Of a stretch of DNA of 64,000 nt, positions 2,610 to 61,285 are shown in pieces (within the stretch, counting starts at the first letter, position 1; each line of letters begins with the position of its first letter). The notes under the pieces are model-generated. The model worked only from the letters and a program-made list of their open reading frames with translations, was not told the DNA's origin and searched no databases. The stretch lies in the UHGV virus genome UHGV-1370141. The stretch is one strand, 5' to 3'. The translations under genes were made by a program, and so were the position numbers. The stretch is from a virus.

Positions 2610-2806
2610 GACTTCCCTCCAACACACCGCCACTCACATTCGCGTTGGTGCCAAATTGAACCCCAGGTGAGCCTAATCGCGTACGCTAAGACCACCCATA
2701 AAATCGCCGTTATACAAAATAGCACGTACAGAATGGCAACCAGCACCATGACGCTAAACCCTAAAACGCTTAGTAACTGACGCCACCAATCAGTTTGCGT
2801 AGACAA
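2606..2806 (-). CDS. Small membrane protein (66 aa, hydrophobic core)
   Basis: TTG start preceded by AAGGAG; start overlaps ATPase stop by 17 nt; hydrophobic stretch LLSVLGFSVMVLVAILYVLFCITAILWVVLAYAI. Confidence 0.4.
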   Translation of the reverse strand: MSTQTDWWRQLLSVLGFSVMVLVAILYVLFCITAILWVVLAYAIRLTWGSIWHQRECEWRCVGGKS

Positions 2807-5312
2807 TTTTTACTCCTTCGTTGTAAACCGCAGGCAGTGTTACGCCTTCAGGTTCAATAACACAGTATGCGGCTTCGTTAAGTTTTGAATGAATTTCTGC
2901 TTCGTGAGATACCACCAGTAACTGAGAGAACTCACCGGAATTCGCCAGGGTTTTAATAAACCCAACGAGGTTATTTCGGTGTTCTTCATCCATCCCTTCT
3001 GACGGCTCATCCAACAGTAGCGGATACTGATGAAGTTTCAGGGCTTTGTAAGCGGTTAAACGAAACATCAAATTAAAGATGGCTCGCTGCGCTTTCGACC
3101 CTTTCCGCACGTCAGGTACCGGTTCAGGATGGGTTTTTAACTGCACTGGGAACGTGTAGTCTAAGTCACCGTCGGTTAAGTCACACGGCATGACCCGCAT
3201 AGGGTAGGTCCAGACTTGTTCGATATATCGCGTCATCAATTCCGTGATTCTCACGATAGCGTTGTAGAAGTATTTGCGTAGTACCCCTTTCTCGGGCGAG
3301 AACGCTTGAATCATCAGTTTGTTATTGAATTGCTGTGCCTGTAAATCCGATAACTCCTTTTCTAACGCAGTAAGTTGGTTGAGCTCGTTTTCCATCTGAC
3401 GGTACCGTTCCCGTGCTGTGGTGAACGCATCCAACTTGTTTTCTCGGGCGTTTAATAACGTTTCGACCACCGTGTTGGTTAATGTTACCTTAACATCGTT
3501 CTCTAAACGCTCAAAAACCGCATTAAAATTGTCTACAGTGGCTTTAAGTTCGTTTAGATAACAAAAGGTATCATTAGCAACTGCGTGCTCTCTACGGCGC
3601 TCTGAGAGCGTTTCTGTCGCCTTACCCAAACGCTCCTGCTGGAAGGCAATTTTCTGCTGTAGAGCACCATCAACGTTACCTACCGCTGCAACTGCGTTTG
3701 CCCACTCTTTTTCCGCTTTAGCAAAACGGTGTTTCGTTTCGTGGTATTCAATTGCGGAATAAAGTTCACGATCGAACTCTGCACACAAACTGCCAAACTG
3801 ACTGCGGTTATCCGTAAAGACATTCCGCTCCTGGAGACGTTTAAAGAACAAACTCAATACCGGGTCTTTCGAGTATGTTAAAACGATTTCCCGCACTTGG
3901 CGCATGTAATTAACGTCCGACTCTAATTCCGTACGGTCTCGCAACACGGAATCAAGCTGAGTCTGTAACGTATTACGTTGCTCCATTTGTCCACGAATGG
4001 CTTCTTCCAATTCAGGCAAAGAACGACGCACGCCCGGACGGAATTTAAATTGACACTGCGGACAATCAACCTCTGCGGTTTCCAAATAGTGATTCCGTTC
4101 GTGGTTGAGGTTCTGCAATACGTTTTCAACGCGTTGTAGTCGGTCACGCAACCCAGATGAGTTCTGGTCTAAGGTCAACAGTTTCTCTTCCAGTACGTTC
4201 AACCGTTCCGTTGATTTAATAGCATCCAGCGTTGTTCCTAAACGTTGTCCCCAGACACGCGCATCCGTCGCTGCTTTAAGCTGGTCAATGTTAACGGTCT
4301 CCGCAAACAGTTCAGGGAAAAGATGTTCGGTGTCCCACTGCTTTAATAACTCACGCAGTTTTGCAACCGTGTTCTTTAACCCTTCGTGATTCCGCATCAG
4401 GTAATCTTGGCGGGTAGACTCGTCCATCAACAGAGACAAATCTTTGTTTAGCATAGACAGCTCTGTTTCAGCAGAGACCACCGCTTCACGGGCAGTGGCT
4501 TCAACGCGTCGTGCTTCCTCTACCTGTTCTTCCGTAGGTAATCCACCACGGTGTTCCAAGATAGCATTAATCGGTGCTTCGATTTTAAGCAATAGCGATT
4601 GAATCGTTGCCACCGTAACGTCACGATTCAGGCCCGGCAGTTGTTCAATCTGTTTGTTGAGTTCACGTAAATCTGCTTCTAATGCTTTTAACCGTGTTGC
4701 TAACTGCTGACGTTCTTCCTCGTTATCAATCACGCGGGTACGCAACTCTGCAATCTTGCGGCTGGTGATTTCAATACCGCCGTTTAACATCGTCAGGTTT
4801 TTTCGTAAACGTTGATAAAAACCTAACGCGTAAGTTAAGTCTGACGTACTTAAACGGTAGAACCACTTACGACGCAGTTCCGTTCCTGCATCCGTTAAAA
4901 GCACTTCTCCGTTCAGTAACTCTTTAATCTCTTTTGTAATGCCCGTGATTTCTTCTACACGAGAGTTATACACTTTCGCATTACCTTGTTCGACGATTTT
5001 GGTACCCGTCGTCAGGTTCTCGATATCGCAAACCAGTGAGTTGCCTTTACGTGCAACCTTAAATTTGTAACGATGGTCGTTAACCAAACAGATGTTGGTG
5101 TAAGAACCCCCGTCACGGAATTCGGATTTCGAAGGTGCGATAGGTAGAAACACGGACAGTAAGCTGGTCTTACCGCAGCCGTTACCACCGAGGATAATAG
5201 TGGTTGGGGAATGGATAGTAAAATCGAAGGTTTCGATTTCGTGTAGTCCCATCCCGGTAAACCCTTTAAGTACAATACGTTCAACTTTTAACATGTCCAC
5301 CTCCATATTCAC
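2790..5312 (-). CDS. SbcC/Rad50-like ATPase (Walker A, coiled coil with CxxC zinc-hook-like motif, Walker B)
   Basis: N-terminal GGNGCGKTS; long coiled-coil region with central CPQC; C-terminal LLLDEPSEGMD and VVSHEAE. Confidence 0.65.
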   Translation of the reverse strand: MNMEVDMLKVERIVLKGFTGMGLHEIETFDFTIHSPTTIILGGNGCGKTSLLSVFLPIAPSKSEFRDGGSYTNICLVNDHRYKFKVARKGNSLVCDIENLTTGTKIVEQGNAKVYNSRVEEITGITKEIKELLNGEVLLTDAGTELRRKWFYRLSTSDLTYALGFYQRLRKNLTMLNGGIEITSRKIAELRTRVIDNEEERQQLATRLKALEADLRELNKQIEQLPGLNRDVTVATIQSLLLKIEAPINAILEHRGGLPTEEQVEEARRVEATAREAVVSAETELSMLNKDLSLLMDESTRQDYLMRNHEGLKNTVAKLRELLKQWDTEHLFPELFAETVNIDQLKAATDARVWGQRLGTTLDAIKSTERLNVLEEKLLTLDQNSSGLRDRLQRVENVLQNLNHERNHYLETAEVDCPQCQFKFRPGVRRSLPELEEAIRGQMEQRNTLQTQLDSVLRDRTELESDVNYMRQVREIVLTYSKDPVLSLFFKRLQERNVFTDNRSQFGSLCAEFDRELYSAIEYHETKHRFAKAEKEWANAVAAVGNVDGALQQKIAFQQERLGKATETLSERRREHAVANDTFCYLNELKATVDNFNAVFERLENDVKVTLTNTVVETLLNARENKLDAFTTARERYRQMENELNQLTALEKELSDLQAQQFNNKLMIQAFSPEKGVLRKYFYNAIVRITELMTRYIEQVWTYPMRVMPCDLTDGDLDYTFPVQLKTHPEPVPDVRKGSKAQRAIFNLMFRLTAYKALKLHQYPLLLDEPSEGMDEEHRNNLVGFIKTLANSGEFSQLLVVSHEAEIHSKLNEAAYCVIEPEGVTLPAVYNEGVKIVYAN

Positions 5313-5378
5313 GGAGCGTGGTGTAAAAAGAAAAAAAATAAAAGAGAAGGGAGAGAACCCGAAGGTTCTCTCGTGGTA

Positions 5379-5987
5379 TTACGGCTGGTAGAGTTTGTAA
5401 CCCATCTCCTGCCAGTTTTGGATATTTTTCGATTGCTCAACCCAAGCCTGGCCTGCGTCGGACGCAACAACTTCCATCGTCAGTAAACAAATCAGATTGG
5501 TAACGGGAACACATTTGCCTGGTGTAACGTCATCCAAATACACCGGATACAGATAAGGTGATTTGATGCTTTGATACGGATAGGAATAATGCGTTCCTAC
5601 AACCCAACCTTCTTCCACCGGGCAGAGGTTAAAGGTACGCGTTTCTGGGATTTCCCCTTCAGAGATCCAATTTACAACGTCGGCCTTAATACGGCCGTTG
5701 TCGATGTAGTAGAACACAACACGTTGCGGGATACCTGCACCCCCGGTAGGGTCTATTGCTTCCAGCGCTTTAAACGGTGTATTATTTAGCGTAGTACGGT
5801 TATCTAACGCGTACATCAGCTTTTCGTAAGCGGTTGGCGTTTTACGTTCGAAATACGCTTTCAAACGCGGGTACGCTAAGAACCCTTCGACTTCTTCCTC
5901 CATTAAATCGATGAATAACGGAGAATGTGGATTAGCTTCGTTTAGTCGCATCGCTTCGATAAAACGAACCAAAGTAATTTCGTTCAT
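5379..5987 (-). CDS. Hypothetical protein
   Basis: 202-aa ORF, ATG start. Confidence 0.55.
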   Translation of the reverse strand: MNEITLVRFIEAMRLNEANPHSPLFIDLMEEEVEGFLAYPRLKAYFERKTPTAYEKLMYALDNRTTLNNTPFKALEAIDPTGGAGIPQRVVFYYIDNGRIKADVVNWISEGEIPETRTFNLCPVEEGWVVGTHYSYPYQSIKSPYLYPVYLDDVTPGKCVPVTNLICLLTMEVVASDAGQAWVEQSKNIQNWQEMGYKLYQP

Positions 5988-6003
5988 GTTTCAGTTTCCT
6001 TTG

Positions 6004-6034
6004 GCAAAAAAGAAGCCCCGTACACAGCGGGGCC
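6004..6034 (-). terminator. Intrinsic terminator
   Basis: Hairpin GCCCCG-tacacag-CGGGGC then T-run on minus strand, just downstream of 6042..6518. Confidence 0.6.
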
Positions 6035-6041
6035 GGGCTAA

Positions 6042-6518
6042 TCACAGCCCTAAGTGCGTGAGTGATAAGATAGGCTGTGAGACACCCTGGATAGTAGCGT
6101 GGGAACGATACATTTCGGCGTTGGTTGAGAATACCTCGTTAGCGATAATGCATTCACCCGTCTCTAAAGATAGGAGATAAATGTAATCGCTCCATACGCT
6201 TTGTACCAAGACCCACTCTAAGGATGGACCACAGTCTGATGTTGCTTGCAAATAGTGGAAATAAGGACGTATCGCATCCACCGCCGCATTAAAGCGACGA
6301 TGATAAATTCGAGTTAAGTCAAACGACCAAATTGTTTCCAGGTCAATAGGGCGTAAAGTACGCACGGTTTTGATAATAGTTTCCTGGTCGTTGTGTCGTG
6401 CAGCATCAGCAATCAATAGCAGTTTCCAAGCTACCGTTAAGTTGTGGCGAATATACTCAGGCTTAGCCGTCAGTTCGTGATGGAATTGGGCTGCTTGATA
6501 AACATTAGATAAACGCAT
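6042..6518 (-). CDS. Hypothetical protein
   Basis: 158-aa ORF. Confidence 0.55.
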   Translation of the reverse strand: MRLSNVYQAAQFHHELTAKPEYIRHNLTVAWKLLLIADAARHNDQETIIKTVRTLRPIDLETIWSFDLTRIYHRRFNAAVDAIRPYFHYLQATSDCGPSLEWVLVQSVWSDYIYLLSLETGECIIANEVFSTNAEMYRSHATIQGVSQPILSLTHLGL

Positions 6519-6545
6519 TTTAATTCTCCTTTAGGTAAAACAAGT

Positions 6546-6586
6546 CGTAAAAAGGACCCCGGACGAATCGGAACGTACCGGGGCCA
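6546..6586 (-). terminator. Intrinsic terminator
   Basis: GC-rich hairpin CCCCGGACG...CGTACCGGGG then TTTTT on minus strand, downstream of 6597..6986. Confidence 0.55.
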
Positions 6587-6596
6587 AGACTACACA

Positions 6597-6986
6597 TCAG
6601 TAATCTAATTCGATAGCACCTAACATCTCACCGCGTTCTTCGATGACGATAAGATGGCGGTCACGTGATTTGCTTTTCGCAAGCGTTAGTACAACTGTGG
6701 GGTCACACGTTTTGGTCGTTACAGGAAGCACCTCTTTTGCTACAGAGTCGAGTACGAAATAATAACCCGCAGGGCAGGTTGTCCCACCATCTGCTTTTAC
6801 GAGTATATAGCGTCCATCTGCGCCAACTTCTTGGCACTCGCCTGCATCGCCTTCGCAGACTTCAAAACCCGGTGGGTTGTAGTGATAGTCTGTGTTCGTT
6901 GCCGGGGTAAGTAATAAATCGTCGATGTGTGTAGAAGCCATAACTCCGATTGAGAAAAACGCCAACAAAGCGCAGATAAGACGCAT
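6597..6986 (-). CDS. Small secreted protein (signal peptide)
   Basis: MRLICALLAFFSIGVMAST N-terminus; 6 Cys in mature part. Confidence 0.55.
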   Translation of the reverse strand: MRLICALLAFFSIGVMASTHIDDLLLTPATNTDYHYNPPGFEVCEGDAGECQEVGADGRYILVKADGGTTCPAGYYFVLDSVAKEVLPVTTKTCDPTVVLTLAKSKSRDRHLIVIEERGEMLGAIELDY

Positions 6987-6996
6987 GGTTTACTCC

Positions 6997-7407
6997 TTAG
7001 ATTTTAAGTTTGTCCTGTGCTACAACGATTGGTGCTCCAGAGGTGTCGATAACACCTACAGTCGGCACACCATTTTTGATTTTGAAGAACGGTTTGTTTT
7101 CGCCTGAACACAATTGGTTGTCTTTGTATTCGATTTTCTGTGCTTTCCAAGTTTCCAGGTTGAGTACCGACATAGGGCTGTCGTAGCACCAGGCACCACC
7201 TTGCTCAACAACGAAAACATATCTGTTACCTTTGTATTCAAACAAATTCTTTGTCTGGCAATACAGACCGTCAATTTCTGTGCAGTAGAATTCATCGGTA
7301 CTGTTGACGTATTTGATACCCGCCGGTAGCTTTATTGTTTTTGCTGCTACGTTAAGAGAGAACAGAACAGTTACAGCAACGAGTAAAGTTTTGATAAACG
7401 TTTTCAT
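6997..7407 (-). CDS. Small secreted protein (signal peptide)
   Basis: MKTFIKTLLVAVTVLFSLNVAA then KT; Cys-containing mature region. Confidence 0.55.
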   Translation of the reverse strand: MKTFIKTLLVAVTVLFSLNVAAKTIKLPAGIKYVNSTDEFYCTEIDGLYCQTKNLFEYKGNRYVFVVEQGGAWCYDSPMSVLNLETWKAQKIEYKDNQLCSGENKPFFKIKNGVPTVGVIDTSGAPIVVAQDKLKI

Positions 7408-7422
7408 GACAGACTCCTTAAA

Positions 7423-7905
7423 TTAATTAACCGTAGCTACGTATTTCTTAACCAGATAGGCGAATTCATTAACGCCGATATCGCCAAACCAAACCAGGTA
7501 ACCTGGGTCGACGTTGTAATAGTAACCTACCACGACATGGGTCTGCGGGTTATAAAGCGTCGTGATGTATTCCCAACCACAAGCATTGCTTTTGCAAGCG
7601 GTAGATTCAAGCCAGATTTTGCCGTTGATTTGCACGGGAATAACATCGCCGCCAGGACCATCCATCACGCCATCTTTACCGAATAACCCGTCTAGTCCGA
7701 CAGGTTTCAACGCTTTATCGATTGCGGCTTTATAAGTCGCATCGTCGGTATAGAGTGTGTTGATATCAGGACATGCACTGGGTTGTTCAGCCCAGGCTTC
7801 CGGGTTACAACTAAGTGCTTGTTTTACACTAGCCGCTTCTGCGTTAAAGGTAAAGCCCGTGAACAGAACCGCCACGAAGAACATCAGGGTATGTAAACGT
7901 TTCAT
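7423..7905 (-). CDS. Small secreted protein (signal peptide)
   Basis: MKRLHTLMFFVAVLFTGFTFNAEA signal; contains ACKSNACG loop. Confidence 0.55.
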   Translation of the reverse strand: MKRLHTLMFFVAVLFTGFTFNAEAASVKQALSCNPEAWAEQPSACPDINTLYTDDATYKAAIDKALKPVGLDGLFGKDGVMDGPGGDVIPVQINGKIWLESTACKSNACGWEYITTLYNPQTHVVVGYYYNVDPGYLVWFGDIGVNEFAYLVKKYVATVN

Positions 7906-7923
7906 TGTAAATTCTCCATTAAA

Positions 7924-8310
7924 TTATTCAGCGCTACGATTTAAAGTAATACGACCGATCAGTTCTGCATTATGGAAGAAGTCCACAGCAGTATAGTTAC
8001 CGACCTCTAACGGATGAATACTGACTGACATGACTTTTGGTTGTTCGCAGGCGATATCCGTCAGACGTTGGTAGACTTGTGCACGAGTGTCAGCAATGAG
8101 TAATCCGGTACACGATTCACCACGCACTAAACGATAAACTTGCAGTTTACCGAAACTGCGCATTAACGTAGGCGACTCATCCGGGTTGATAATGGGTGAA
8201 TCAGGAGCCGGTTCGTAATGGCGGACGTCCGAATCGCCGAAAGCATAAGTGGCCGTAATACCGACTGCACAGAAAATAATGATGGTATAAAGTATAGTTC
8301 TGATATTCAT
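7924..8310 (-). CDS. Small secreted protein (signal peptide)
   Basis: ATG at 8310 (ORF track uses GTG at 8316); MNIRTILYTIIIFCAVGITATYAFG signal. Confidence 0.5.
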   Translation of the reverse strand: MNIRTILYTIIIFCAVGITATYAFGDSDVRHYEPAPDSPIINPDESPTLMRSFGKLQVYRLVRGESCTGLLIADTRAQVYQRLTDIACEQPKVMSVSIHPLEVGNYTAVDFFHNAELIGRITLNRSAE

Positions 8311-8338
8311 TTTCACGCACTCTAAAAAAGATTAATAC

Positions 8339-8800
8339 TTATTTGTTAGGACGGGTGTGTCCACAGTTCTGGAAGAAAGTTTCAGACAGACGTTCGCCTT
8401 CTACGGTAAAGTTAGCGGCTTCGTTTCCGTTGATATTCACACTGAAAGTTTTGGCATTGCCGATAGCATTAACGAAAGCCACCCAAGCGAGTTCTGCTTT
8501 GTCACTACCATCCACCGTAGGGATGTTGTAAGTTTTGCCATTTACGACAATATCCAGCGTGTTGTCTTCAGCGTTAGTTGCACCTACAGGTTCCCCGTAA
8601 TACCAAACCATGCGACCGTAAAATTTGCGATTCGCGGTTTCAGTGTCACAGTTGATAGACAGTCCGTTTCCGGTGGTGTCTTCGATTTCGTAAACAGCTT
8701 GACCTGGGTTCTGTAGTTGTTCCCAACTATTGATTGCAGCGTGTGCAGTATTGAATCCGATTGCGAAAAGGCCGATTAAAAAGGAAGTGAAGATTTTCAT
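8339..8800 (-). CDS. Small secreted protein (signal peptide)
   Basis: MKIFTSFLIGLFAIGFNTAHA signal; GAGGAG RBS. Confidence 0.55.
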   Translation of the reverse strand: MKIFTSFLIGLFAIGFNTAHAAINSWEQLQNPGQAVYEIEDTTGNGLSINCDTETANRKFYGRMVWYYGEPVGATNAEDNTLDIVVNGKTYNIPTVDGSDKAELAWVAFVNAIGNAKTFSVNINGNEAANFTVEGERLSETFFQNCGHTRPNK

Positions 8801-8845
8801 TGTTTTGCTCCTCGTGGGGTTAACAAGTAAAAGAGTTAATCTTAA

Positions 8846-8871
8846 CTCTCACCTAAGTAATATATATCTGA
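8846..8871 (-). promoter_or_regulatory. Conserved 26-bp promoter-like motif, copy 1 of 4
   Basis: Minus-strand TCAGATATATATTACTTAGGTGAGAG about 45 nt upstream of 8339..8800 start. Confidence 0.4.
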
Positions 8872-8892
8872 GATTATTTTTAATGTTAGATA

Positions 8893-8927
8893 ACAAAAAA
8901 TAAAAGGTGGGGTTTACACCCCACCGT
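8893..8927 (-). terminator. Intrinsic terminator
   Basis: Hairpin GGTGGGG-tttaca-CCCCACC then T-run on minus strand after 8930..9508. Confidence 0.6.
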
Positions 8928-8929
8928 TG

Positions 8930-9508
8930 TTAAACGTCGAATCGATACTGACGAGAATTGATTAAGAATTCTGTATTCAGTTCAATCCATTCGAGCAGGT
9001 CACCCAGTTGTAAACGACTTGGGTTTTCTAACTCGATAGTGGCAACCGGATAAGAGTTTACTAATTCCGTAATTGCCTCAATACCTTCTTGCGTTCCATC
9101 GTCTTCTAAGGTAATTATAAACGGCATATCGGTACGCTCTGCGTTCGGGTTATACAGACTGACTTTCGTTGCCTGTACAAACGCCGAGTAATCGTCACGC
9201 ATGATTCTAATGTCAGGCGCTAACGTTACCCAGAGGTGTTGTCCCGGTTGGAGTTTACGTTTTGCGTAGTTTAAGAACGGATTAGCCGGTAAGTTTTCCA
9301 AACCACTGCAAATGTTCCGTAAATGAATTCCTCGCGGGTCTTTATAGTCCACAGTGAAAATTCCTACCGGTTCACGGTCTGCCTGTTTTACCAGAAAGGC
9401 CAATACCGTGTCCGCTCTCTCTGGTAAGGAAAGCTCTATTCCCTCAAGCTCCCCGTCGACGAGGTTTTCCAACCAAACGTCTTTTCTCATTTCTATTAAT
9501 CGGTACAC
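8930..9508 (-). CDS. Hypothetical protein
   Basis: 192 aa; GTG start with AGAGGTGG RBS. Confidence 0.5.
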   Translation of the reverse strand: MYRLIEMRKDVWLENLVDGELEGIELSLPERADTVLAFLVKQADREPVGIFTVDYKDPRGIHLRNICSGLENLPANPFLNYAKRKLQPGQHLWVTLAPDIRIMRDDYSAFVQATKVSLYNPNAERTDMPFIITLEDDGTQEGIEAITELVNSYPVATIELENPSRLQLGDLLEWIELNTEFLINSRQYRFDV

Positions 9509-9520
9509 GGTACCACCTCT

Positions 9521-10294
9521 TTAGTTATTGAGATTTACATCTGCGATAAACAACAATTGTTTGCCGTGTTGCTGTACTTCTTTCCAACCTAATTTCATAG
9601 CAGTATCAACAACATCAACCATGCTGTAACGGGACATCAAAGATTCTGATTTTGTTCCTGACATTAAGTAAAGTGGCTCATTAGGGCTACGGTCACGTGC
9701 GTCAGGAAGTTCACGTACGACTGCCGAGCCTTCGGGTACGGTAACAAGATGAATCACGGTAAATGGCCTCTTGTGCGTTAAATAGATACGAAATCCAACG
9801 TGTTCAGATTCATGAAAGATTTTCCTCACAACCACATCTTTCAGTGTTGTTTGAACATCAGCCCCAGGCAATATCATGGATTCGCGTGAAACGAAACAAC
9901 GACTATTTTCAATTGTGGAGAAATAATTACGTAGCGGTAAACTGGCGTTATTATCGCGCAGTCTTTTGCTTAAACGGTCGTAATCCATTTCTTTAACTTC
10001 TTCTAACCATGCGTAGGCACGTTCAACGTAGTACAGACCAACAGCGCGATAAGTTAATACTTTGCCTGTGGCCACTTGCCAGAGCTTAACGGTTAGCGTA
10101 TCAGGTTTATATCGCCGATATTCTCCGCGTGTATAAGTGATACGTTGATAAAGACCCACGTCTTCTGTTGGCGCGGATTCGACCGATTGTAATTGCAGCG
10201 TTCGATGAAATCTATCGTCTAGCAACAATGAAGCCAGCGAACCTTTAACCATATACGGTTCAGATTTAAAGAGGTCGTCTAAATGAATTTTCAT
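9521..10294 (-). CDS. Hypothetical protein, paralog family with conserved C-terminal GW..V...G.QLLF.A motif
   Basis: 257 aa; C-terminus LGWKEVQQHGKQLLFIADV. Confidence 0.55.
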   Translation of the reverse strand: MKIHLDDLFKSEPYMVKGSLASLLLDDRFHRTLQLQSVESAPTEDVGLYQRITYTRGEYRRYKPDTLTVKLWQVATGKVLTYRAVGLYYVERAYAWLEEVKEMDYDRLSKRLRDNNASLPLRNYFSTIENSRCFVSRESMILPGADVQTTLKDVVVRKIFHESEHVGFRIYLTHKRPFTVIHLVTVPEGSAVVRELPDARDRSPNEPLYLMSGTKSESLMSRYSMVDVVDTAMKLGWKEVQQHGKQLLFIADVNLNN

Positions 10295-10361
10295 TTCTAT
10301 TTCCTTCTTAACAAAAGCCGCGACTAAAGCGCGGCAGTTAGAGAAAGTGTATTTTCACTTA

Positions 10362-11513
10362 TTAAAGGTCAGCAACAAACAGCAGCTGATTGCCGTACGG
10401 TTCGACAGATTTCCAACCGTAATCTTTACCGATCGTCGTTAGATGACCGGTATTTAACTTTTTGTCAACCATTCGCAGACGCATCATTAGCGTATTGGAT
10501 TCTGCCGCATCGAGTAATAACGCAGGTTCTTTTTCAGTGCGGTCATCTGCTTTCGGGAAGAAACTGTAATATTGACTTTTGGGCAGATCGATTGACAACG
10601 TATAATTTTTCTTTGTAACGAATAACGCCATCCCTTCGAAATTGCAATCGAAGCGATATTCCCAACCCGCTTCTGCTAAAACGTCCTTTAGCATCTCCAT
10701 GACTTTAAGCTGGTTAACGCTAGGCAGTCGGTAGATTGCAAGACCACTTGGGAAAATGCGTATACCGTCGACGACACTATCGGTGGTTTCGTCAATAAGT
10801 TCAGGATAGCGTTGTGAGAAAATGTGATCGCTCTTGCTTTTCTCTTCGACGTCACGAATGAATTGGGCTAATTCGTCTTTTAAGGCAGACATTTGATTTT
10901 CTCCTTTGTCTTCAATAATCAGGTGGGGTTCGCCGCTAACTAAAATGTGGTAAACAATGTCGTCGGTAGAACGGTAAGTGAGCTTGATAGCTTTATCACT
11001 TAACATTTCGTAGCGGAAGAAGCTTTCGTACCAGCTTGAGCCGAAATCGTTTTGTGTGAGTTCCTGCTCAACTTTGATGGTTTTTGCTTCAAAGCCAATT
11101 AACCCGCTTAATAACGCGAGTTCTGGTTTAGTTAAAATAGCTGCGCCGTGAAAGGACACTTGTTCAAGCTGAAAACATAAATTACTGACTTTACCACTTG
11201 GGAAGACTTTAAACATAATCTTCCGGTTGCTACTCTTTTCTCTAACAACGAGTTTACGGTAATTTAGTCCAGAATTTGTGTAAGCCGTGAACTGGTAACC
11301 TTCAATTTCTTCGTCGTAAGTACAGACATCGACAGGCGCGATAATCTCATCGTATTCACTCAGTACACAGCAGCCCAAGTTATAACCAAACAACTCGCGT
11401 TGTAATGAAGACTCGATGGTTAAGCTTGGCAGTGGCCATGTCCGATTATAGCATCTGTCCATCAGTTCTTTTAGGATCTTGACATGCCCTGGTTTAGAAA
11501 TAATATTTCGCAT
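10362..11513 (-). CDS. Hypothetical protein, same paralog family
   Basis: 383 aa; C-terminus YGWKSVEPYGNQLLFVADL. Confidence 0.55.
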   Translation of the reverse strand: MRNIISKPGHVKILKELMDRCYNRTWPLPSLTIESSLQRELFGYNLGCCVLSEYDEIIAPVDVCTYDEEIEGYQFTAYTNSGLNYRKLVVREKSSNRKIMFKVFPSGKVSNLCFQLEQVSFHGAAILTKPELALLSGLIGFEAKTIKVEQELTQNDFGSSWYESFFRYEMLSDKAIKLTYRSTDDIVYHILVSGEPHLIIEDKGENQMSALKDELAQFIRDVEEKSKSDHIFSQRYPELIDETTDSVVDGIRIFPSGLAIYRLPSVNQLKVMEMLKDVLAEAGWEYRFDCNFEGMALFVTKKNYTLSIDLPKSQYYSFFPKADDRTEKEPALLLDAAESNTLMMRLRMVDKKLNTGHLTTIGKDYGWKSVEPYGNQLLFVADL

Positions 11514-14396: not shown

Positions 14397-14606
14397 ATGG
14401 CTATTAAAGAATTCTCTTCTGCTGAACACATTCCTGAAGAGTTCAAGAAAATTGGTAACGTAAGCGCTTTCGGTGATACCGTAGACGACGTTACTGCTAA
14501 GCTGGCTGTCGAAGCTGAAAAGATCGGCGGTGAAGCGTTTAAAGTTATCGGTATTTCCGGTAACAACAAACTGCACGGTAACGCGATTGTCTACAAAAAA
14601 GACTAA
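14397..14606 (+). CDS. DUF1471 (YdgH/BhsA/McbA-like) domain protein lacking a signal peptide
   Basis: KKIGNVSAFGDTVDDVTAKLAVEAEKIGGEAFKVIGISGNNKLHGNAIVYKK matches the BhsA-type pattern ending ...HGTAVIYK; GGAGA RBS. Confidence 0.55.
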   Translation: MAIKEFSSAEHIPEEFKKIGNVSAFGDTVDDVTAKLAVEAEKIGGEAFKVIGISGNNKLHGNAIVYKKD

Positions 14607-38786: not shown

Positions 38787-39266
38787 ATGCTAAAACGCAT
38801 TCTCGTGGTCGTTGCTTTTGTAATGACGTTGGCAGGTTGTGCTATTCAGCCGAACGCAGAAGGTCAGTTCTCCACCGTACCTGTTGACCAACATGATATG
38901 GTCATTTACACCTGTACAGGTGCTTCTCAAGAATTCGTCGATTTTAAACCGGTACCGTCTAGCCTAAAACTGATGCCCCTTTCGGTGTTAGTCATGGATA
39001 CAGGGGCGAATTGGGTCGCTACATGGGACGAAGGTAAAATCGAATCTCCGCAACTTTATAAAGACCTGTTAGGTAAGGTGGACGGTAACTTAAACGTTGT
39101 TACCGGTGAGCGCTATTACCGTGTAAACGGGTTACTGTCAAAAACTCCAACGTTTGCGTATTCTACCATCAACTACAAAACAGGTGAAGGTAAAGGTGTA
39201 ACGTTCTTCAGATGTCACGAAGGTAGCATTCCGGATACCGGCACTATGCTGCACCCGGTAGAATAA
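38787..39266 (+). CDS. Lipoprotein (lipobox LAGC), isolated on opposite strand
   Basis: MLKRILVVVAFVMTLAGCA signal with lipobox; own terminator downstream. Confidence 0.6.
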   Translation: MLKRILVVVAFVMTLAGCAIQPNAEGQFSTVPVDQHDMVIYTCTGASQEFVDFKPVPSSLKLMPLSVLVMDTGANWVATWDEGKIESPQLYKDLLGKVDGNLNVVTGERYYRVNGLLSKTPTFAYSTINYKTGEGKGVTFFRCHEGSIPDTGTMLHPVE

Positions 39267-45479: not shown

Positions 45480-45974
45480 TTAGAGATGTTTTTCGATAAC
45501 TTCCGAAACTAATTCGTAAAGGTCATCGTCGCTGCACACTTCTACACTAATTCCGATATCGATACTACGACTACGGAACCCAACTTTGAGCGATTTACCG
45601 AACTCGGTTTGAAAGGCTTTATAGAGGATGTTCTTATCTTCTTCTGTGAGGCGAACAGGTAGTCTAACGGTGAACTTGTAATGTTCTTTCGAAACAAGTT
45701 CGTTGGAATAATTGAGTCGTTTGGCTCCACGCGTTCCGACAATCTGTGTTACCAGCTTAAACATTTCCTCGTCGGTATACGCTGTTGCGCTATAACCGAT
45801 ATCGATAGTGTTTCTGCGGAAACCTGCGCAGAACAAAGCACCGAACTGTTCACGGAATTCTTTGTACAGGACGTCTTTTTCTACGTCCAGTAATCCGTAA
45901 CCCAAGTCAACAGTAAATTTGTATTTTTCTTTGTCAACCAATTCATTAGTGTAATCAAGTCTAGTGAAGTTCAT
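45480..45974 (-). CDS. Hypothetical protein made of two tandem ~80-aa repeats
   Basis: LDYTNELVDKEKYKFTVDL...FRRNTIDIGYS vs LNYSNELVSKEHYKFTVRL...FRSRSIDIGIS. Confidence 0.55.
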   Translation of the reverse strand: MNFTRLDYTNELVDKEKYKFTVDLGYGLLDVEKDVLYKEFREQFGALFCAGFRRNTIDIGYSATAYTDEEMFKLVTQIVGTRGAKRLNYSNELVSKEHYKFTVRLPVRLTEEDKNILYKAFQTEFGKSLKVGFRSRSIDIGISVEVCSDDDLYELVSEVIEKHL

Positions 45975-46019: not shown

Positions 46020-46045
46020 CTCTCACCTAAGTAATATATATCTGA
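46020..46045 (-). promoter_or_regulatory. Conserved 26-bp promoter-like motif, copy 3 of 4
   Basis: Minus strand TCAGATATATATTACTTAGGTGAGAG about 50 nt upstream of 45480..45974. Confidence 0.4.
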
Positions 46046-49053: not shown

Positions 49054-49497
49054 TTAAATCATTGCTGGGAATTCGAAATCAATCTTATTTACGATCCCGT
49101 AATCTTCTTTTAGTTGAATGTTTAATGTTCCCTGAAATAACTCAAGAGAACCGATGAAGAACGCTGTGTAGCAGTTTCCACGAACAGAAAAGGCAAGATC
49201 CAATCCCCTTAAACAGCGTTTTAAGGTATCGTGTTCTTCTTTACTACCGAACAACTGGAAATTGATAACGGTAATCTGTTTGTTAATGATTGCCATTAAC
49301 CAATTTTTAATTCTTTTCGTGGTTATACTCTCTTTAAAATCGTTAGCTTCTGGTAGCCAACTAACGTGAACAAACGGAGCGGCATAATCCACGCGAACCT
49401 TTTGCTGCCAACGTACTTGCATCAAACCACGAATACGATTTGCTAACGTTTCAGAATCACAAAGTAGCATAATGCCATTAGTAGTATTTGGTTTCAT
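49054..49497 (-). CDS. Hypothetical protein
   Basis: 147 aa; AAGGAAGGA RBS. Confidence 0.55.
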   Translation of the reverse strand: MKPNTTNGIMLLCDSETLANRIRGLMQVRWQQKVRVDYAAPFVHVSWLPEANDFKESITTKRIKNWLMAIINKQITVINFQLFGSKEEHDTLKRCLRGLDLAFSVRGNCYTAFFIGSLELFQGTLNIQLKEDYGIVNKIDFEFPAMI

Positions 49498-49563: not shown

Positions 49564-49589
49564 CTCTCCCCTAGGTAATATATATCTGA
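49564..49589 (-). promoter_or_regulatory. Conserved 26-bp promoter-like motif, copy 4 of 4
   Basis: Minus strand TCAGATATATATTACCTAGGGGAGAG about 65 nt upstream of 49054..49497. Confidence 0.4.
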
Positions 49590-60713: not shown

Positions 60714-61088
60714 TTATTCGGTTAATTCTCCACACAACACAACGTCGATACCAAACATCATTCCCACTTCTTGAAGTTTGTTCGCCAGTAAGTGACGATG
60801 ACAAAACTTACCTGCGGGACAATAACACATCAAAACCAAATCATCGTGTCTGAGTAATGACACTAAAACTTCGGCGTTGGTATCTAACAGTCGTTCGAGC
60901 TTATATAAATACTTTATCGTGTACTCACGTTCAGCGACAGTGTCCTTGGCAGAGTTTTTATACGCCATTAAGAAATCCCAGTCTGGGGCGAGTTCCTTTC
61001 TCCCCGATTTGACTGTAATATCCACTGCGTGAAATCCTTTCTGCTTAGCTAACCGCCACTTAGCGAGTTGTAACGTCCAGATACGCAT
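60714..61088 (-). CDS. Hypothetical protein with C-terminal CYCPxGxxCHRH motif
   Basis: 124-aa ORF; possible metal-binding Cys/His cluster. Confidence 0.5.
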   Translation of the reverse strand: MRIWTLQLAKWRLAKQKGFHAVDITVKSGRKELAPDWDFLMAYKNSAKDTVAEREYTIKYLYKLERLLDTNAEVLVSLLRHDDLVLMCYCPAGKFCHRHLLANKLQEVGMMFGIDVVLCGELTE

Positions 61089-61285
61089 TAGGAACGGGTC
61101 TGCGATTCAGCCATCAGCGCACAACTTTTCACAGCCTGTGCATGAAGTTCTGTACCCGGTGTGTAATCCTTTATACAATCCTGATACAATTCGCTTTTCT
61201 TTTCTAAAACACGATTGTCACACTCGGCACTTGCTAGTGCCCCTGCGATAAGGATAAAAACTAGAATCGGCAACCAAATTTTCAT
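61088..61285 (-). CDS. Small secreted protein (signal peptide, 4 Cys)
   Basis: MKIWLPILVFILIAGALASA signal. Confidence 0.45.
   Translation of the reverse strand: MKIWLPILVFILIAGALASAECDNRVLEKKSELYQDCIKDYTPGTELHAQAVKSCALMAESQTRS

What the first reader, a model, noticed from the sequence alone, without database searches (positions are those of the whole stretch)
6597..8800. Run of five consecutive small signal-peptide proteins
Five adjacent minus-strand genes (129-160 aa) all start with classical Sec signal peptides, are mutually unrelated and mostly Cys-containing. A virulent phage exporting five small proteins to the periplasm is unusual. They could be superinfection-exclusion or receptor-masking factors, inhibitors of periplasmic host enzymes, or lysis-timing regulators. 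One (7423-7905) carries an ACKSNACG loop that superficially resembles the CKPHDC loop of Ivy-type lysozyme inhibitors, but the key His is missing.
Basis: partly seen in the sequence, partly recalled or inferred. Interest (0 to 1): 0.5.

Follow-up and report, generated by a model that had tools for sequence, protein, structure and literature searches.

The report
Jumbo-phage operon of exported proteins
A giant E. coli phage carries a tightly packed operon of five small proteins predicted to be exported to the periplasm; one is a real but divergent relative of the bacterial lysozyme inhibitor Ivy, and it and its neighbour are shared with chromosomal islands found in about 43% of E. coli genomes.

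Summary
Five adjacent minus-strand ORFs (6597-8800) all have Sec-type signal peptides by my heuristic, and each mature part has an even Cys count (4,4,4,2,2). A run of five is unlikely by chance (P about 1e-4 to 5e-4).

The run is not peculiar to this phage. SPN3US, phiEaH2, Asesino, SPAsTU and Machina carry three or four signal-peptide genes at the same place, downstream of the same conserved promoter-like motif. This phage differs by an Ivy-like gene (p3) replacing one paralogue and an added YfjT-like gene (p5).

A 949-bp p3-p2 block is 88.5% identical to a CP4-type E. coli island. p3-like and p2-like genes occur in 2,333 and 2,366 of 5,426 complete E. coli genomes. A preprint reports that knocking down an E. 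coli Ivy-like protein with the family's CKANTC loop raises T7 plating.

Best reading: an early periplasmic envelope-guarding operon built around an inhibitor of peptidoglycan-cleaving enzymes. The function is inferred, not shown.

The parts
8906..8925 (-). Terminator-like hairpin (GGTGGGG-TGTAAA-CCCCACC followed by TTTTATTTTT) that ends the upstream gene (8930-9508) and insulates the operon
   Evidence: 8 pairs, 6 G-C, T-run
8826..8884 (-). Conserved promoter-like element. Its core CAGATATATATTACTTAGGTGAGAG is at 8846-8870, 46 nt upstream of the p5 ATG. It is a candidate early (virion RNA polymerase) promoter.
   Evidence: It is the only stretch of window 6000-9600 with megablast hits to SPN3US-like phages. 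There are 3 copies in the window against 0 in 100 shuffles. The core lies just upstream of the syntenic cluster in SPN3US, Machina, phiEaH2 and Asesino. The temporal class is inferred from review PMC7598289.
8339..8800 (-). p5: exported YfjT-family protein (signal peptide ...AHA|AIN, 2 mature Cys). It is an addition compared with SPN3US.
   Evidence: BLASTP against E. coli K-12 YfjT: 26% identity over 135 aa, E=2e-14. Precomputed PF27224 on its 66-99% identical homologues. No equivalent gene between SPN3US_0179 and _0180.
7924..8316 (-). p4: orthologue of SPN3US_0180. The hydrophobic N-terminus is either a signal peptide (TYA|F) or a signal anchor; 2 conserved mature Cys. The start is GTG 8316 or ATG 8310.
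   Evidence: 51% identical to SPN3US_0180. phrog_9424 at 2.7e-42. Unannotated p4-like DNA of about 70% identity in 238 E. coli genomes, lying upstream of the Ivy-like gene in the L004-type island.
7423..7905 (-). p3: exported, divergent Ivy-superfamily protein. Signal peptide AEA|AS; Cys33, Cys45, Cys104 and Cys109 nearly invariant; loop C104-K-S-N-A-C109 in register with Ivy's CKPHDC. It occupies the slot held by SPN3US_0181 in relatives.
6997..7407 (-). p2: exported 4-Cys protein, orthologue of SPN3US_0182 and paralogue of p1. It is the constant neighbour of the Ivy-like gene in the VE-T9 and O157 islands.
   Evidence: 35% identical to SPN3US_0182. 103 of 136 residues identical to the island ORF L019:7499-7909. 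p2-like DNA in 2,366 of 5,426 E. coli genomes. hhalign: p2-gp85 97%, p1-p2 84%.
6597..6986 (-). p1: exported 4-Cys protein, orthologue of SPN3US_0183 and paralogue of p2
   Evidence: 48-53% identical to homologues in 55 phage records. phrog_5248 at 4.6e-31. No chromosomal E. coli DNA relative.
6964..7912 (-). 949-bp block (p3, p2 and the first 23 nt of p1) shared with CP4-type E. coli genomic islands
   Evidence: 88.5% identity to E. coli VE-T9 L019:6994-7941. The p3 gene alone is 96.1-96.5% identical in 15 chromosomes.
6014..6034 (-). Strong terminator-like hairpin after the next gene (6042-6518, no signal peptide); probable end of the transcription unit
   Evidence: 7 pairs, 6 G-C, T-run. 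Gaps within the run are only 22, 18, 15 and 10 nt, then 78 nt.

Best explanation
The five genes form one tightly spaced transcription unit. It starts at a clade-conserved, AT-rich promoter-like motif that is probably an early promoter read by the virion RNA polymerase. Its products are probably exported by the Sec pathway and disulfide-bonded in the periplasm.

The core of the unit is ancestral to SPN3US-like jumbo phages: p4 plus a family of 4-Cys paralogues represented here by p2 and p1. In this E. coli phage lineage the middle paralogue (the SPN3US_0181 type) has been replaced by p3, a divergent member of the Ivy superfamily of periplasmic inhibitors of peptidoglycan-cleaving enzymes. A YfjT-family gene (p5) has been added at the front.

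p3 and p2 are also a two-gene module of CP4-type genomic islands in about 43% of complete E. coli genomes, and the module is exchanged with the phage (96% nucleotide identity for p3).

Proposed mechanism (inferred, not shown): soon after infection the cell's periplasm fills with these proteins. p3 uses its disulfide-closed beta-hairpin loop (CKSNAC) to block the active-site cleft of a lysozyme-like or lytic-transglycosylase enzyme. The most likely target is the wall-piercing enzyme carried by virions of competing phages, so that secondary infections fail at the cell wall. That is a functional analogue of T4 Spackle built on a different fold. The same module in a chromosomal island would act as a host barrier to phage entry. 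p1, p2, p4 and p5 are proposed to be further periplasmic binders or inhibitors with other targets; their folds remain unknown.
For: Shown here:
- ORFs, signal-peptide features, even and conserved Cys counts, and the improbability of the run.
- Operon anatomy: an upstream terminator, then the motif, gaps of 10-22 nt, and a downstream terminator.
- The motif occurs 3 times in the window against 0 expected, and sits at the syntenic position in SPN3US, Machina, phiEaH2 and Asesino.
- Synteny and orthology with SPN3US_0180-0183 and the phiEaH2, Asesino, Machina and SPAsTU genes, all with signal peptides.
- p1/p2/gp85 paralogy on mature sequences.
- p5 is YfjT family.
- Sharing with islands: 949 bp at 88.5% identity; p3-like in 2,333 and p2-like in 2,366 of 5,426 genomes; island contexts in VE-T9 and O157.

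From the literature:
- Ivy-type inhibitors insert a loop between antiparallel strands into the lysozyme active site. T4 Spackle is an early, periplasmic, disulfide-bonded inhibitor of the tail lysozyme gp5 that gives superinfection exclusion (PMC7677548).
- Conserved AT-rich motifs upstream of operons in RNAP-encoding jumbo phages proved to be early promoters wherever tested (PMC7598289).
- CRISPRi knockdown of an E. coli O121 Ivy-like protein with loop CKANTC raised T7 plating efficiency (bioRxiv 10.1101/2024.04.20.590424). CKANTC is the commonest loop among p3's E. coli homologues, for example P0007 at 73% identity.
Against: - No dedicated signal-peptide predictor was run, and export, disulfide formation and expression time are untested.
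- p3 itself is below the curated cut-offs of Pfam Ivy (14.7 against 21 bits) and NCBIfam Ivy (19.4 against 180 bits).
- p3 lacks the loop His of CKPHDC that, from my own knowledge of the Ivy-lysozyme complex, engages the lysozyme catalytic residues. Inhibition of C-type lysozyme is therefore doubtful and the true target is unknown.
- The p3 model has only moderate confidence (pLDDT 68.9, pTM 0.65, 8-sequence alignment).
- I could not confirm by sequence that the preprint's hypo_04657 is a p3 homologue; only the loop, the fold and the species match. CRISPRi there could also be polar on the p2-like gene downstream. The preprint's authors proposed T7 lysozyme as the target, and that enzyme is cytoplasmic.
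- PADLOC has no model matching any of the five.
- The folds of p1, p2, p4 and p5 are unresolved.
- The temporal class of the promoter motif is inferred by analogy, not measured for this clade.
Confidence: 0.45

Rival explanations
1. Wall stabilisation or lysis timing. p3, perhaps with its neighbours, restrains the host's own lytic transglycosylases or the phage's own endolysin, so that the cell wall stays intact through the long jumbo-phage cycle or lysis is delayed. It would not act on incoming phages.
For: p3 belongs to the Ivy superfamily. From my own knowledge (not checked here), Ivy has been reported to inhibit bacterial lytic transglycosylases such as MltB. The only other phage-borne Ivy homologue in 50,697 phage records (PHB10, loop CKPHSC) lies two genes downstream of that phage's endolysin.
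Against: The operon is not next to a recognisable lysis cassette. It carries a motif of the early-promoter type, whereas lysis regulators are usually late. The same module is kept in chromosomal islands of about 43% of E. coli, where control of phage lysis timing has no obvious use. The reported knockdown phenotype is an increase in plating by an unrelated phage.
Confidence: 0.2
2. Receptor or envelope remodelling. The exported proteins bind or mask outer-membrane or periplasmic components (receptors, Tol/Ton, porins), or block DNA translocation as T4 Imm does. On this view p3's Ivy fold serves only as a binding scaffold or periplasmic chaperone and does not inhibit an enzyme.
For: Five different small exported disulfide-bonded proteins suggest several targets. 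RefSeq annotates E. coli K-12 Ivy as 'periplasmic chaperone, inhibitor of vertebrate C-type lysozyme'. The catalytic-site His is missing. p4's cleavage site is poorly conserved among orthologues, so it may be membrane-anchored.
Against: The disulfide loop, its register and the flanking G-W/strand residues are kept across the p3 family while the inner loop residues vary (CKSNAC, CKSDAC, CKANAC, CKANTC, CKAHAC). That pattern is what I would expect if the loop were the working surface of an inhibitor.
Confidence: 0.15
3. Host-benefit cargo with no role in the phage cycle. p3-p2 are island genes that protect E. coli from animal lysozymes or serve another host purpose, and the phage picked them up by chance.
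For: p3-like and p2-like genes are far more common and more diverse in E. coli chromosomes than in phages. Protection against host lysozyme is the usual annotation for Ivy.
Against: p2 and p4 have orthologues at the same position in phages of Salmonella, Erwinia and other hosts, so at least those two are ancestral phage genes. The gene is intact, keeps its signal peptide and four Cys, and is 95% identical at protein level in independent phage contigs. It sits inside a compact operon. Loops without the His are unlikely to inhibit C-type lysozyme.
Confidence: 0.1
4. The hydrophobic N-termini are not cleaved Sec signals, being membrane anchors or chance, or the ORFs are not expressed.
For: Only a home-made heuristic was applied, and two of its nine positives in the window look false. 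p4 has a weak ribosome-binding site and an ambiguous start.
Against: The n/h/c architecture and AXA sites are conserved in orthologues at 35-53% identity from five phages in three genera, while the mature parts diverge. Even Cys counts are conserved. The homologues Ivy and YfjT are N-terminally signal-bearing E. coli proteins. p1, p2, p3 and p5 have good Shine-Dalgarno sequences. The run is improbable by chance.
Confidence: 0.05

Closest known systems
Ivy, inhibitor of vertebrate lysozyme (E. coli ykfE/ivy; Pfam PF08816; PDB 1gpq, 1xs0, 1uuz)
   Different: The loop is CKSNAC, not CKPHDC, so the His and Asp are lost. p3 has a second conserved disulfide pair (C33/C45) and a longer N-terminal helical segment. 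It is only about 16-20% identical and falls below the curated family thresholds. It is encoded by a jumbo phage and by CP4-type islands rather than at the ivy locus. Its target is unknown.
E. coli O121 'hypo_04657' (PHAGEPACK preprint, bioRxiv 10.1101/2024.04.20.590424)
   Same: An E. coli protein with an Ivy-like domain and loop CKANTC. The same loop is in P0007, P0009, P0015 and P0051, which are 67-73% identical to p3. A reported anti-phage phenotype exists: knockdown raised T7 plating.
   Different: Sequence identity with p3's family could not be verified because the preprint text gives no sequence. It is chromosomal rather than phage-borne. The annotated protein has an extra domain, which fits the 223-227-aa fused ORFs of the islands. 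The authors proposed T7 lysozyme as the target.
T4 Spackle (gp61.3), with T4 Imm
   Same: Spackle is an early phage gene for a small protein with a cleaved periplasmic signal and a disulfide bond. It inhibits a peptidoglycan-cleaving enzyme of incoming virions and so gives superinfection exclusion (PMC7677548). This is the proposed working analogue.
   Different: Spackle is an alpha-helical bundle that acts allosterically. It is unrelated in sequence and fold and was described as evolutionarily independent of Ivy-type inhibitors. Here the function is inferred, and the locus has five genes rather than one.
YfjT / YkfB-type proteins of CP4-57-like cryptic prophages (Pfam PF27224)
   Same: p5 aligns with K-12 YfjT over 135 residues (E=2e-14), including the signal peptide, the I-N-C motif and a C-terminal Cys.
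   Different: Only 26% identity. It is phage-borne and has no DNA-level relative in E. coli chromosomes. The family has no known function, and none of the 16 papers that mention YfjT has it in the title or abstract.
SPN3US_0180-0183 and their orthologues in Erskinevirus, Machinavirus and Seoulvirus phages (PHROGs 9424, 8968, 5248)
   Same: Same position between the SPN3US_0179-type gene and the SMC-like gene, the same promoter-like motif upstream, the same signal peptides and the same Cys pattern.
   Different: All are annotated 'hypothetical protein' or 'unknown function'. Those phages have a third 4-Cys paralogue where this phage has the Ivy-like p3, and they have no YfjT-like gene.
Escherichia phage PHB10 Ivy homologue (MK524177, QBJ00744.1)
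   Same: The only other Ivy relative found in 50,697 phage records. It has a signal peptide and a disulfide loop.
   Different: It is near-canonical: 38% identical to E. coli Ivy, loop CKPHSC with the His. It is in a 57-kb phage, next to the endolysin region, and not in a multi-gene exported-protein operon.

Membership tests
Ivy superfamily (PF08816 / NF007443) | Sequence match to the curated family model above its threshold | tested here: not met
   p3 itself: Pfam 14.7 bits, E=0.035, cut-off 21. NCBIfam 19.4 bits, E=7e-4, cut-off 180. PDB profile search: Ivy at E=0.7.
Ivy superfamily (PF08816 / NF007443) | Homology demonstrable through intermediate sequences or profile-profile comparison | tested here: met
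   A profile of p3 and close homologues found 54 relatives among 1.84 billion proteins. 25 of the 30 aligned members hit PF08816 at E<=0.01, best 7.6e-12. hhalign of the mature family against mature E. coli Ivy: 97.4%, E=1.1e-11.
Ivy superfamily (PF08816 / NF007443) | Ivy fold (antiparallel beta-sheet flanked by helices) | tested here: met
Ivy superfamily (PF08816 / NF007443) | Disulfide-closed protruding loop C-x4-C between two strands | tested here: met
   C104-KSNA-C109-G aligns in register with Ivy C-KPHD-C-G. Both Cys are at least 90% conserved in the 30-member alignment. The loop lies between strands E96-103 and E113-119 of the model. Formation of the disulfide is inferred.
Ivy superfamily (PF08816 / NF007443) | Canonical inhibitory motif CKPHDC with the active-site His | tested here: not met
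   p3 has CKSNAC. The family's alleles are CKANTC, CKAHAC, CKANAC and CKSDAC, and most distant relatives have C[EKQ][PA]H[ND]C.
Ivy superfamily (PF08816 / NF007443) | Periplasmic location through a cleaved signal peptide | tested here: inconclusive
   The heuristic finds an n/h/c region and AEA|A. No SignalP run and no experiment.
Ivy superfamily (PF08816 / NF007443) | Inhibition of a lysozyme or lytic transglycosylase | not testable with these tools
   Needs purified protein and enzyme assays.
YfjT family (PF27224), for p5 | Sequence match to the family or its founding member | tested here: met
   BLASTP of p5 against K-12 YfjT: E=2e-14, 135 aa. PF27224 is precomputed on 10 of the 12 p5 homologues found and on the p5 homologue in phage contigs L010-L012. 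The model is absent from the local Pfam copy or did not score there.
T4 Spackle-type superinfection-exclusion protein | Sequence or fold relationship to Spackle (alpha-helical bundle) | tested here: not met
   The p3 model is beta-sheet plus helices and matches Ivy, not Spackle. No PHROG or Pfam hit of that kind for any of the five. This is an analogy only.
T4 Spackle-type superinfection-exclusion protein | Early expression, periplasmic location and exclusion phenotype | not testable with these tools
   Only an early-promoter-like motif and predicted signal peptides are available.
Sec/signal peptidase I substrates (all five) | n-, h- and c-regions with small residues at -3 and -1, and no lipobox | tested here: met
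   Conserved in orthologues. The heuristic flags 9 of 73 ORFs in the window.
Jumbo-phage early (virion RNAP) promoter | Highly conserved AT-rich motif repeated upstream of operons | tested here: met
   The 25-nt motif occurs 3 times in the window, 0 in shuffles, always on the coding strand and 46-67 nt before a start codon. It is conserved in four relatives at the syntenic site.
Jumbo-phage early (virion RNAP) promoter | Mapped transcription start and early kinetics | not testable with these tools
   I found no transcriptome for this clade in the library.
Known anti-phage defence systems (PADLOC) | Match to any PADLOC model | tested here: not met
   0 hits at E<=0.1 for all five.

The most novel reading that the evidence does not exclude
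p4-p3-p2 is a mobile periplasmic entry-blocking module that moves between a virulent jumbo phage, where it would give superinfection exclusion, and CP4-type islands in nearly half of E. coli, where it would act as host defence. Its Ivy-like component carries a rapidly varying disulfide loop (CKSNAC, CKANTC, CKAHAC and others) that may be evolving against the wall-piercing enzymes of phage tails. The 4-Cys p1/p2/gp85 proteins would be a new family of disulfide-loop inhibitors or co-factors. If so, this is a widespread and unrecognised class of defence acting at the peptidoglycan step, shared by phages and hosts.
Probability: 0.3. Interest if true: 0.8.

Novelty: new variant of a known kind. Interest (0 to 1): 0.6.

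Why it matters
- Nearly half of complete E. coli genomes, including O157 and O104:H4, carry the p3-p2 pair annotated only as 'hypothetical protein'. This work places p3 in the Ivy superfamily, shows that the pair is exchanged with a jumbo phage, and links it to a published anti-phage knockdown phenotype. That yields a concrete hypothesis: a periplasmic inhibitor of phage wall-piercing enzymes.
- Few barriers to phage infection are known to act at the envelope or peptidoglycan step, with T4 Spackle/Imm and the recently described HXS system (seen) as examples. A fold-independent second example of the Spackle strategy, shared by phage and host, would add to that short list.
- For jumbo-phage biology, it defines a conserved and probably early exported-protein operon in the SPN3US clade that no one has studied. 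It also shows recent gene flow between such a phage and the host chromosome.
- For phage therapy, exclusion genes of this kind affect cocktail design.

Tried and rejected
- Megablast of window 6000-9600 against phages found only the 55-bp motif, so no close sequenced phage exists in INPHARED.
- tblastn of p3 against phages found nothing.
- Direct Pfam, NCBIfam and PDB searches with p3 gave only sub-threshold Ivy hits, insufficient on their own.
- Foldseek of the p3 model against BFVD viral structures found nothing at E<=1e-3.
- The idea that all five proteins share the Ivy fold is not supported. hhalign of the p1, p2, gp85, p4 and p5 profiles against the Ivy-like family and against Ivy gives probabilities below 5%.
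- PDB profile searches: p1/p2/gp85 hit only the designed ThreeFoil (E=9e-5 but no individually significant stretch; treated as unreliable). p4 hit nothing. p5 gave only weak Ig V-domain hits at E>=0.03.
- PADLOC gave no hit.
- Sigma-70 promoter scan of 5000-10500 found fewer sites than in shuffles, so it is uninformative.
- The 8-mer TATATTAC alone is not enriched; only the extended 25-mer is.
- A literature search for the motif string returned irrelevant papers.
- The SPN3US essential-gene/proteome paper does not mention gp83-86 or gp180-183.
- A lipoprotein reading is rejected because none of the five has a lipobox.


Full report
**1. What is in the sequence**

Between 6597 and 8800 the minus strand carries five back-to-back ORFs:
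- p1, 6597-6986, 129 aa
- p2, 6997-7407, 136 aa
- p3, 7423-7905, 160 aa
- p4, 7924-8316, 130 aa from GTG, or 128 aa from the ATG two codons in, which is the start called in the relative L010
- p5, 8339-8800, 153 aa

The gaps between them are 22, 18, 15 and 10 nt. p1, p2, p3 and p5 have clear Shine-Dalgarno sequences; p4's is weak.

Every protein begins with one or two basic residues, an uncharged hydrophobic stretch and an AXA-type site: VMA|S, VAA|K, AEA|A, TYA|F and AHA|A. None has a lipobox. After the predicted cleavage the Cys counts are 4, 4, 4, 2 and 2, all even, as expected for disulfide-bonded periplasmic proteins.

I had no SignalP. I therefore applied the same home-made rule to all 73 gene-like ORFs of the window. 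Nine pass, and five of those are this uninterrupted run. Of the other four, two look real (a lipobox ORF at 38787-39266 and a 65-aa ORF at 61088-61285) and two look false. A permutation test gives P(run of at least 5) = 4.9e-4 with nine positives and 1.3e-4 with seven.

**2. The genome and the conserved cluster**

The window is a divergent relative of the SPN3US/phiEaH2 group of jumbo phages. At the DNA level only a 55-bp intergenic stretch matches them. At the protein level the synteny is complete: an SMC-like gene (window 2790-5312), two further genes, then the run, correspond to SPN3US_0186 back to SPN3US_0179.
- p1 corresponds to SPN3US_0183 (50% identity).
- p2 corresponds to SPN3US_0182 (35%).
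- p4 corresponds to SPN3US_0180 (51%).

I extracted the syntenic genes of SPN3US, SPAsTU, phiEaH2, Asesino and Machina, which represent three genera. In each phage the three or four genes at this place have signal-peptide-like N-termini and mature Cys counts of 2/4/4/4. A run of exported small proteins is therefore a conserved trait of this clade and is not peculiar to this phage. All are annotated 'hypothetical', and the PHROG families they hit (5248, 8968, 9424) have no known function.

**3. The five are not mutually unrelated**

To stop signal peptides from inflating the scores, I compared profiles of mature sequences only.

| Comparison | hhalign probability | E-value |
|---|---|---|
| p2 family vs SPN3US_0181 ('gp85') family | 97.2% | 3e-11 |
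| p1 vs gp85 | 87.2% | 4e-6 |
| p1 vs p2 | 83.9% | 8e-6 |
| p1 vs p4 | 9% | 0.0036 |

A joint alignment shows the four Cys and a Phe, a Val and a G-G pair in common. p4 is at best a distant relative; its PHROG cross-hit to p1's family is 6e-4. p3 and p5 are unrelated to the rest and to each other.

Compared with its relatives, this phage has replaced the middle paralogue (gp85 type) with p3 and gained p5 at the head of the run.

**4. p3 is a real, divergent Ivy**

On their own the direct searches are weak: Pfam Ivy E=0.035, NCBIfam Ivy E=7e-4, and a PDB profile search that lists Ivy 1gpq and 1xs0 among only three hits at E=0.7, with the C-K-x-x-x-C-G loop in register. Three stronger lines of evidence agree.
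- **Transitive homology.** An exhaustive HMMER search with a profile of p3 and its close homologues found 54 relatives. In an alignment of 30 of them the four Cys are nearly invariant, and most distant members carry C-[EKQ]-[PA]-H-[ND]-C. Of these 30, 25 are recognised by Pfam's Ivy model, best E=7.6e-12.
- **Profile-profile comparison.** hhalign of that family against mature E. coli K-12 Ivy gives 97.4% and E=1.1e-11.

p3 therefore belongs to the Ivy superfamily as a separate, sub-threshold branch. It does not meet the canonical motif. Its loop is CKSNAC, and other alleles of the branch have CKANTC, CKAHAC, CKANAC or CKSDAC. The loop frame (C, K, C, G) is fixed while the inner residues vary.

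**5. p5 is a YfjT-family protein**

p5 aligns with E. coli K-12 YfjT, a CP4-57 cryptic-prophage gene, over 135 residues at 26% identity with E=2e-14. The match includes the signal peptide and the I-N-C motif, and both proteins have a C-terminal Cys. Its close phage homologues carry precomputed PF27224 (YfjT) hits. None of the 16 papers that mention YfjT has it in the title or abstract, and I found no functional study.

**6. Traffic with E. coli genomic islands**

p3 has no tblastn hit in 50,697 phage records, but p3-like DNA is present in 2,333 of 5,426 complete E. coli genomes. Fifteen chromosomes carry it at 96.1-96.5% nucleotide identity.

In strain VE-T9 a 949-bp block is 88.5% identical to the phage. 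The block is window 6964-7912, which covers p3, p2 and the first 23 nt of p1. The island's 136-aa ORF shares 103 of 136 residues with p2 and the same 15-nt spacing. p2-like DNA is in 2,366 genomes.

The context is a CP4-type island. Its gene order is GTPase, dynamin-like, RdcB/YjcZ, patatin, the Ivy-like gene, the p2-like gene, DUF932, antirestriction, RadC, DUF987, CbeA and CbtA. It lies next to tRNA-Ser in VE-T9 and at the CP4-44-type (yeeS-yeeW) locus in O157.

In another island type (L004) the DNA upstream of the Ivy-like gene is 72-76% identical to p4 but is not called as a gene. Such unannotated p4-like DNA occurs in 238 genomes. p1 and p5 have no chromosomal DNA relatives. The shared block is therefore p4 (relic), p3 and p2.

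On the direction of transfer, p4 and p2 have orthologues at the same position in phages of Salmonella, Erwinia and other hosts. Phage-to-island transfer is the more economical origin for those two (inference). p3 may have gone either way, and the 96% alleles show that exchange is recent.

**7. Transcription unit**

Upstream of p5, reading the minus strand, there is first a strong terminator-like hairpin (8925-8906) and then the conserved 55-bp element. Its core, CAGATATATATTACTTAGGTGAGAG, occurs three times in the window: at 8846-8870, at 46020-46044, and at 49564-49588 with two mismatches. None was found in 100 shuffles. All three copies are on the coding strand, 46-67 nt before a start codon.

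The motif core also lies directly upstream of the syntenic cluster in SPN3US, between SPN3US_0179 and _0180, and just upstream of it in Machina, phiEaH2 and Asesino.

A review of jumbo-phage RNA polymerases states that such bioinformatically found, highly conserved AT-rich motifs upstream of operons proved to be early promoters, read by the virion RNA polymerase, in every phage that was profiled (PMC7598289). I therefore infer, without showing it, that the run is an early operon. The next strong terminator follows the gene after p1, at 6034-6014.

**8. Mechanism**

From the literature, Ivy-type inhibitors insert the loop between two antiparallel strands into the active site of the lysozyme (PMC7677548). 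T4 Spackle is an early, signal-peptide-bearing, disulfide-bonded periplasmic protein. It inhibits the tail lysozyme gp5 of incoming phages and so causes superinfection exclusion, using an unrelated helical fold.

The PHAGEPACK preprint reports that CRISPRi knockdown of an E. coli O121 hypothetical protein raised T7 plating efficiency. That protein has an Ivy-like domain and the loop 'CKANTC'. CKANTC is the commonest loop among the E. coli homologues of p3 that I retrieved, including P0007 (73% identical to p3, 1,706 member sequences). The 223-227-aa annotated forms would explain the 'extra domain' the preprint describes. I could not verify identity by sequence, and the knockdown could be polar on the p2-like gene.

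Taken together, my preferred reading is an early-expressed set of periplasmic proteins that guards the infected cell's envelope, with p3 as an inhibitor of a peptidoglycan-cleaving enzyme of other phages. The same p3-p2 module would serve as a host barrier when resident in an island. From my own knowledge, T7 gp16 carries a transglycosylase domain that acts in the periplasm, which makes it a more plausible target than the cytoplasmic T7 lysozyme proposed in the preprint.

I put this reading at about 0.45. The rivals are:
- wall stabilisation or lysis timing (0.2; supported by PHB10's Ivy homologue lying beside its endolysin)
- receptor or envelope masking, or a chaperone role (0.15)
- passenger cargo with no role in the phage cycle (0.1)
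- the proteins are not exported or not expressed (0.05)

**9. Limits**

- No dedicated signal-peptide predictor was available.
- Model confidence for p3 is moderate.
- PADLOC has no matching model.
- Nothing here measures expression, export or activity.

**10. Novelty and verdict**

The components belong to known kinds: the Ivy superfamily, the YfjT family and Sec-exported phage proteins. I found no description of any of the following:
- the conserved exported-protein operon of SPN3US-like phages
- a phage-borne Ivy branch whose loop lacks the His in the phage copy
- the p1/p2/gp85 4-Cys paralogue family
- the recent exchange of a p3-p2 module with islands present in about 43% of E. coli

I rate it a new variant of a known kind, with interest 0.6. 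A specialist would not be astonished that a phage exports inhibitors. The link to a very common and uncharacterised E. coli island module, together with a published phenotype, makes a specific hypothesis directly testable.

Noticed in passing
window 5000-10500; NZ_CP173450.1 (L020): A 221,873-bp circular record deposited as 'plasmid p98232-contig_4' of a human urine E. coli isolate (Egypt) is 96% identical to the window across 5.5 kb and has the same gene order. It appears to be this jumbo-phage lineage, present as an extrachromosomal element or contaminant in a bacterial assembly. PGAP marks its p3 as a pseudogene 'missing N-terminus'.
   Followed up: partly
window 46020-46044 (-) and 49564-49588 (-): Two further copies of the 25-nt promoter-like motif CAGATATATATTACYTAGGKGAGAG. 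They lie 46 and 67 nt upstream of the ORFs 45480-45974 and 49054-49497, which are candidate early operon starts elsewhere in the window.
   Followed up: partly
L019:6806-7483, L021:4302-4985; proteins P0004, P0007, P0009: In many E. coli islands the Ivy-like gene is annotated as a 223-227-aa protein. The extra N-terminus is the first ~65 codons of a separate 180-aa signal-peptide protein gene (intact at L004:7098-7640), fused in frame. The real product may start at the internal Met that carries its own signal peptide.
   Followed up: partly
L004:7695-8000 (E. coli chromosome): Unannotated DNA 72-76% identical to the phage p4 gene lies between the 180-aa ORF and the Ivy-like gene. It is probably a decayed p4 copy. 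Similar DNA is found in 238 of 5,426 genomes.
   Followed up: partly
L023:1450-1863 (Escherichia phage PHB10, MK524177): The only Ivy homologue found by tblastn in 50,697 phage records. It has a signal peptide and a near-canonical loop CKPHSC, lies two genes downstream of the endolysin, and is annotated 'hypothetical protein'.
   Followed up: partly
window 38787-39266 (+): A 159-aa ORF with a lipoprotein signal (MLKRILVVVAFVMTLAGC, lipobox LAGC). It is another exported protein outside the cluster and could be a spanin-like or other lipoprotein.
   Followed up: no
window 61088-61285 (-): A 65-aa ORF with a signal-peptide-like N-terminus (MKIWLPILVFILIAGALA|SAECD) and 3 mature Cys.
   Followed up: no
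window 14397-14606 (+): A 69-aa ORF at the position where relatives carry a DUF1471 / YdgH-BhsA-like protein (PF07338 in L010; 'DUF1471 domain-containing protein' in SPN3US). From my own knowledge the bacterial family is exported, but this phage copy has no signal peptide.
   Followed up: no
window 9521-10294 (-) and 10362-11513 (-): The two genes just upstream of the operon's neighbour end in similar C-terminal sequences (...MVDxxxxxxxxGWKxVxxxGxQLLFxAD...). This suggests a pair of paralogues. Seen by eye only.
   Followed up: no
alignment A7 (p1/p2/gp85 family); alignment A6 (p5 family): Weak, unverified structural leads. The p1/p2/gp85 profile hits the designed beta-trefoil 'ThreeFoil' (3pg0) at E=9e-5 with no individually significant stretch. 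The p5 profile gives a series of weak hits (E 0.03-1.6) mostly to immunoglobulin V-type domains around its I-N-C...W motif.
   Followed up: no
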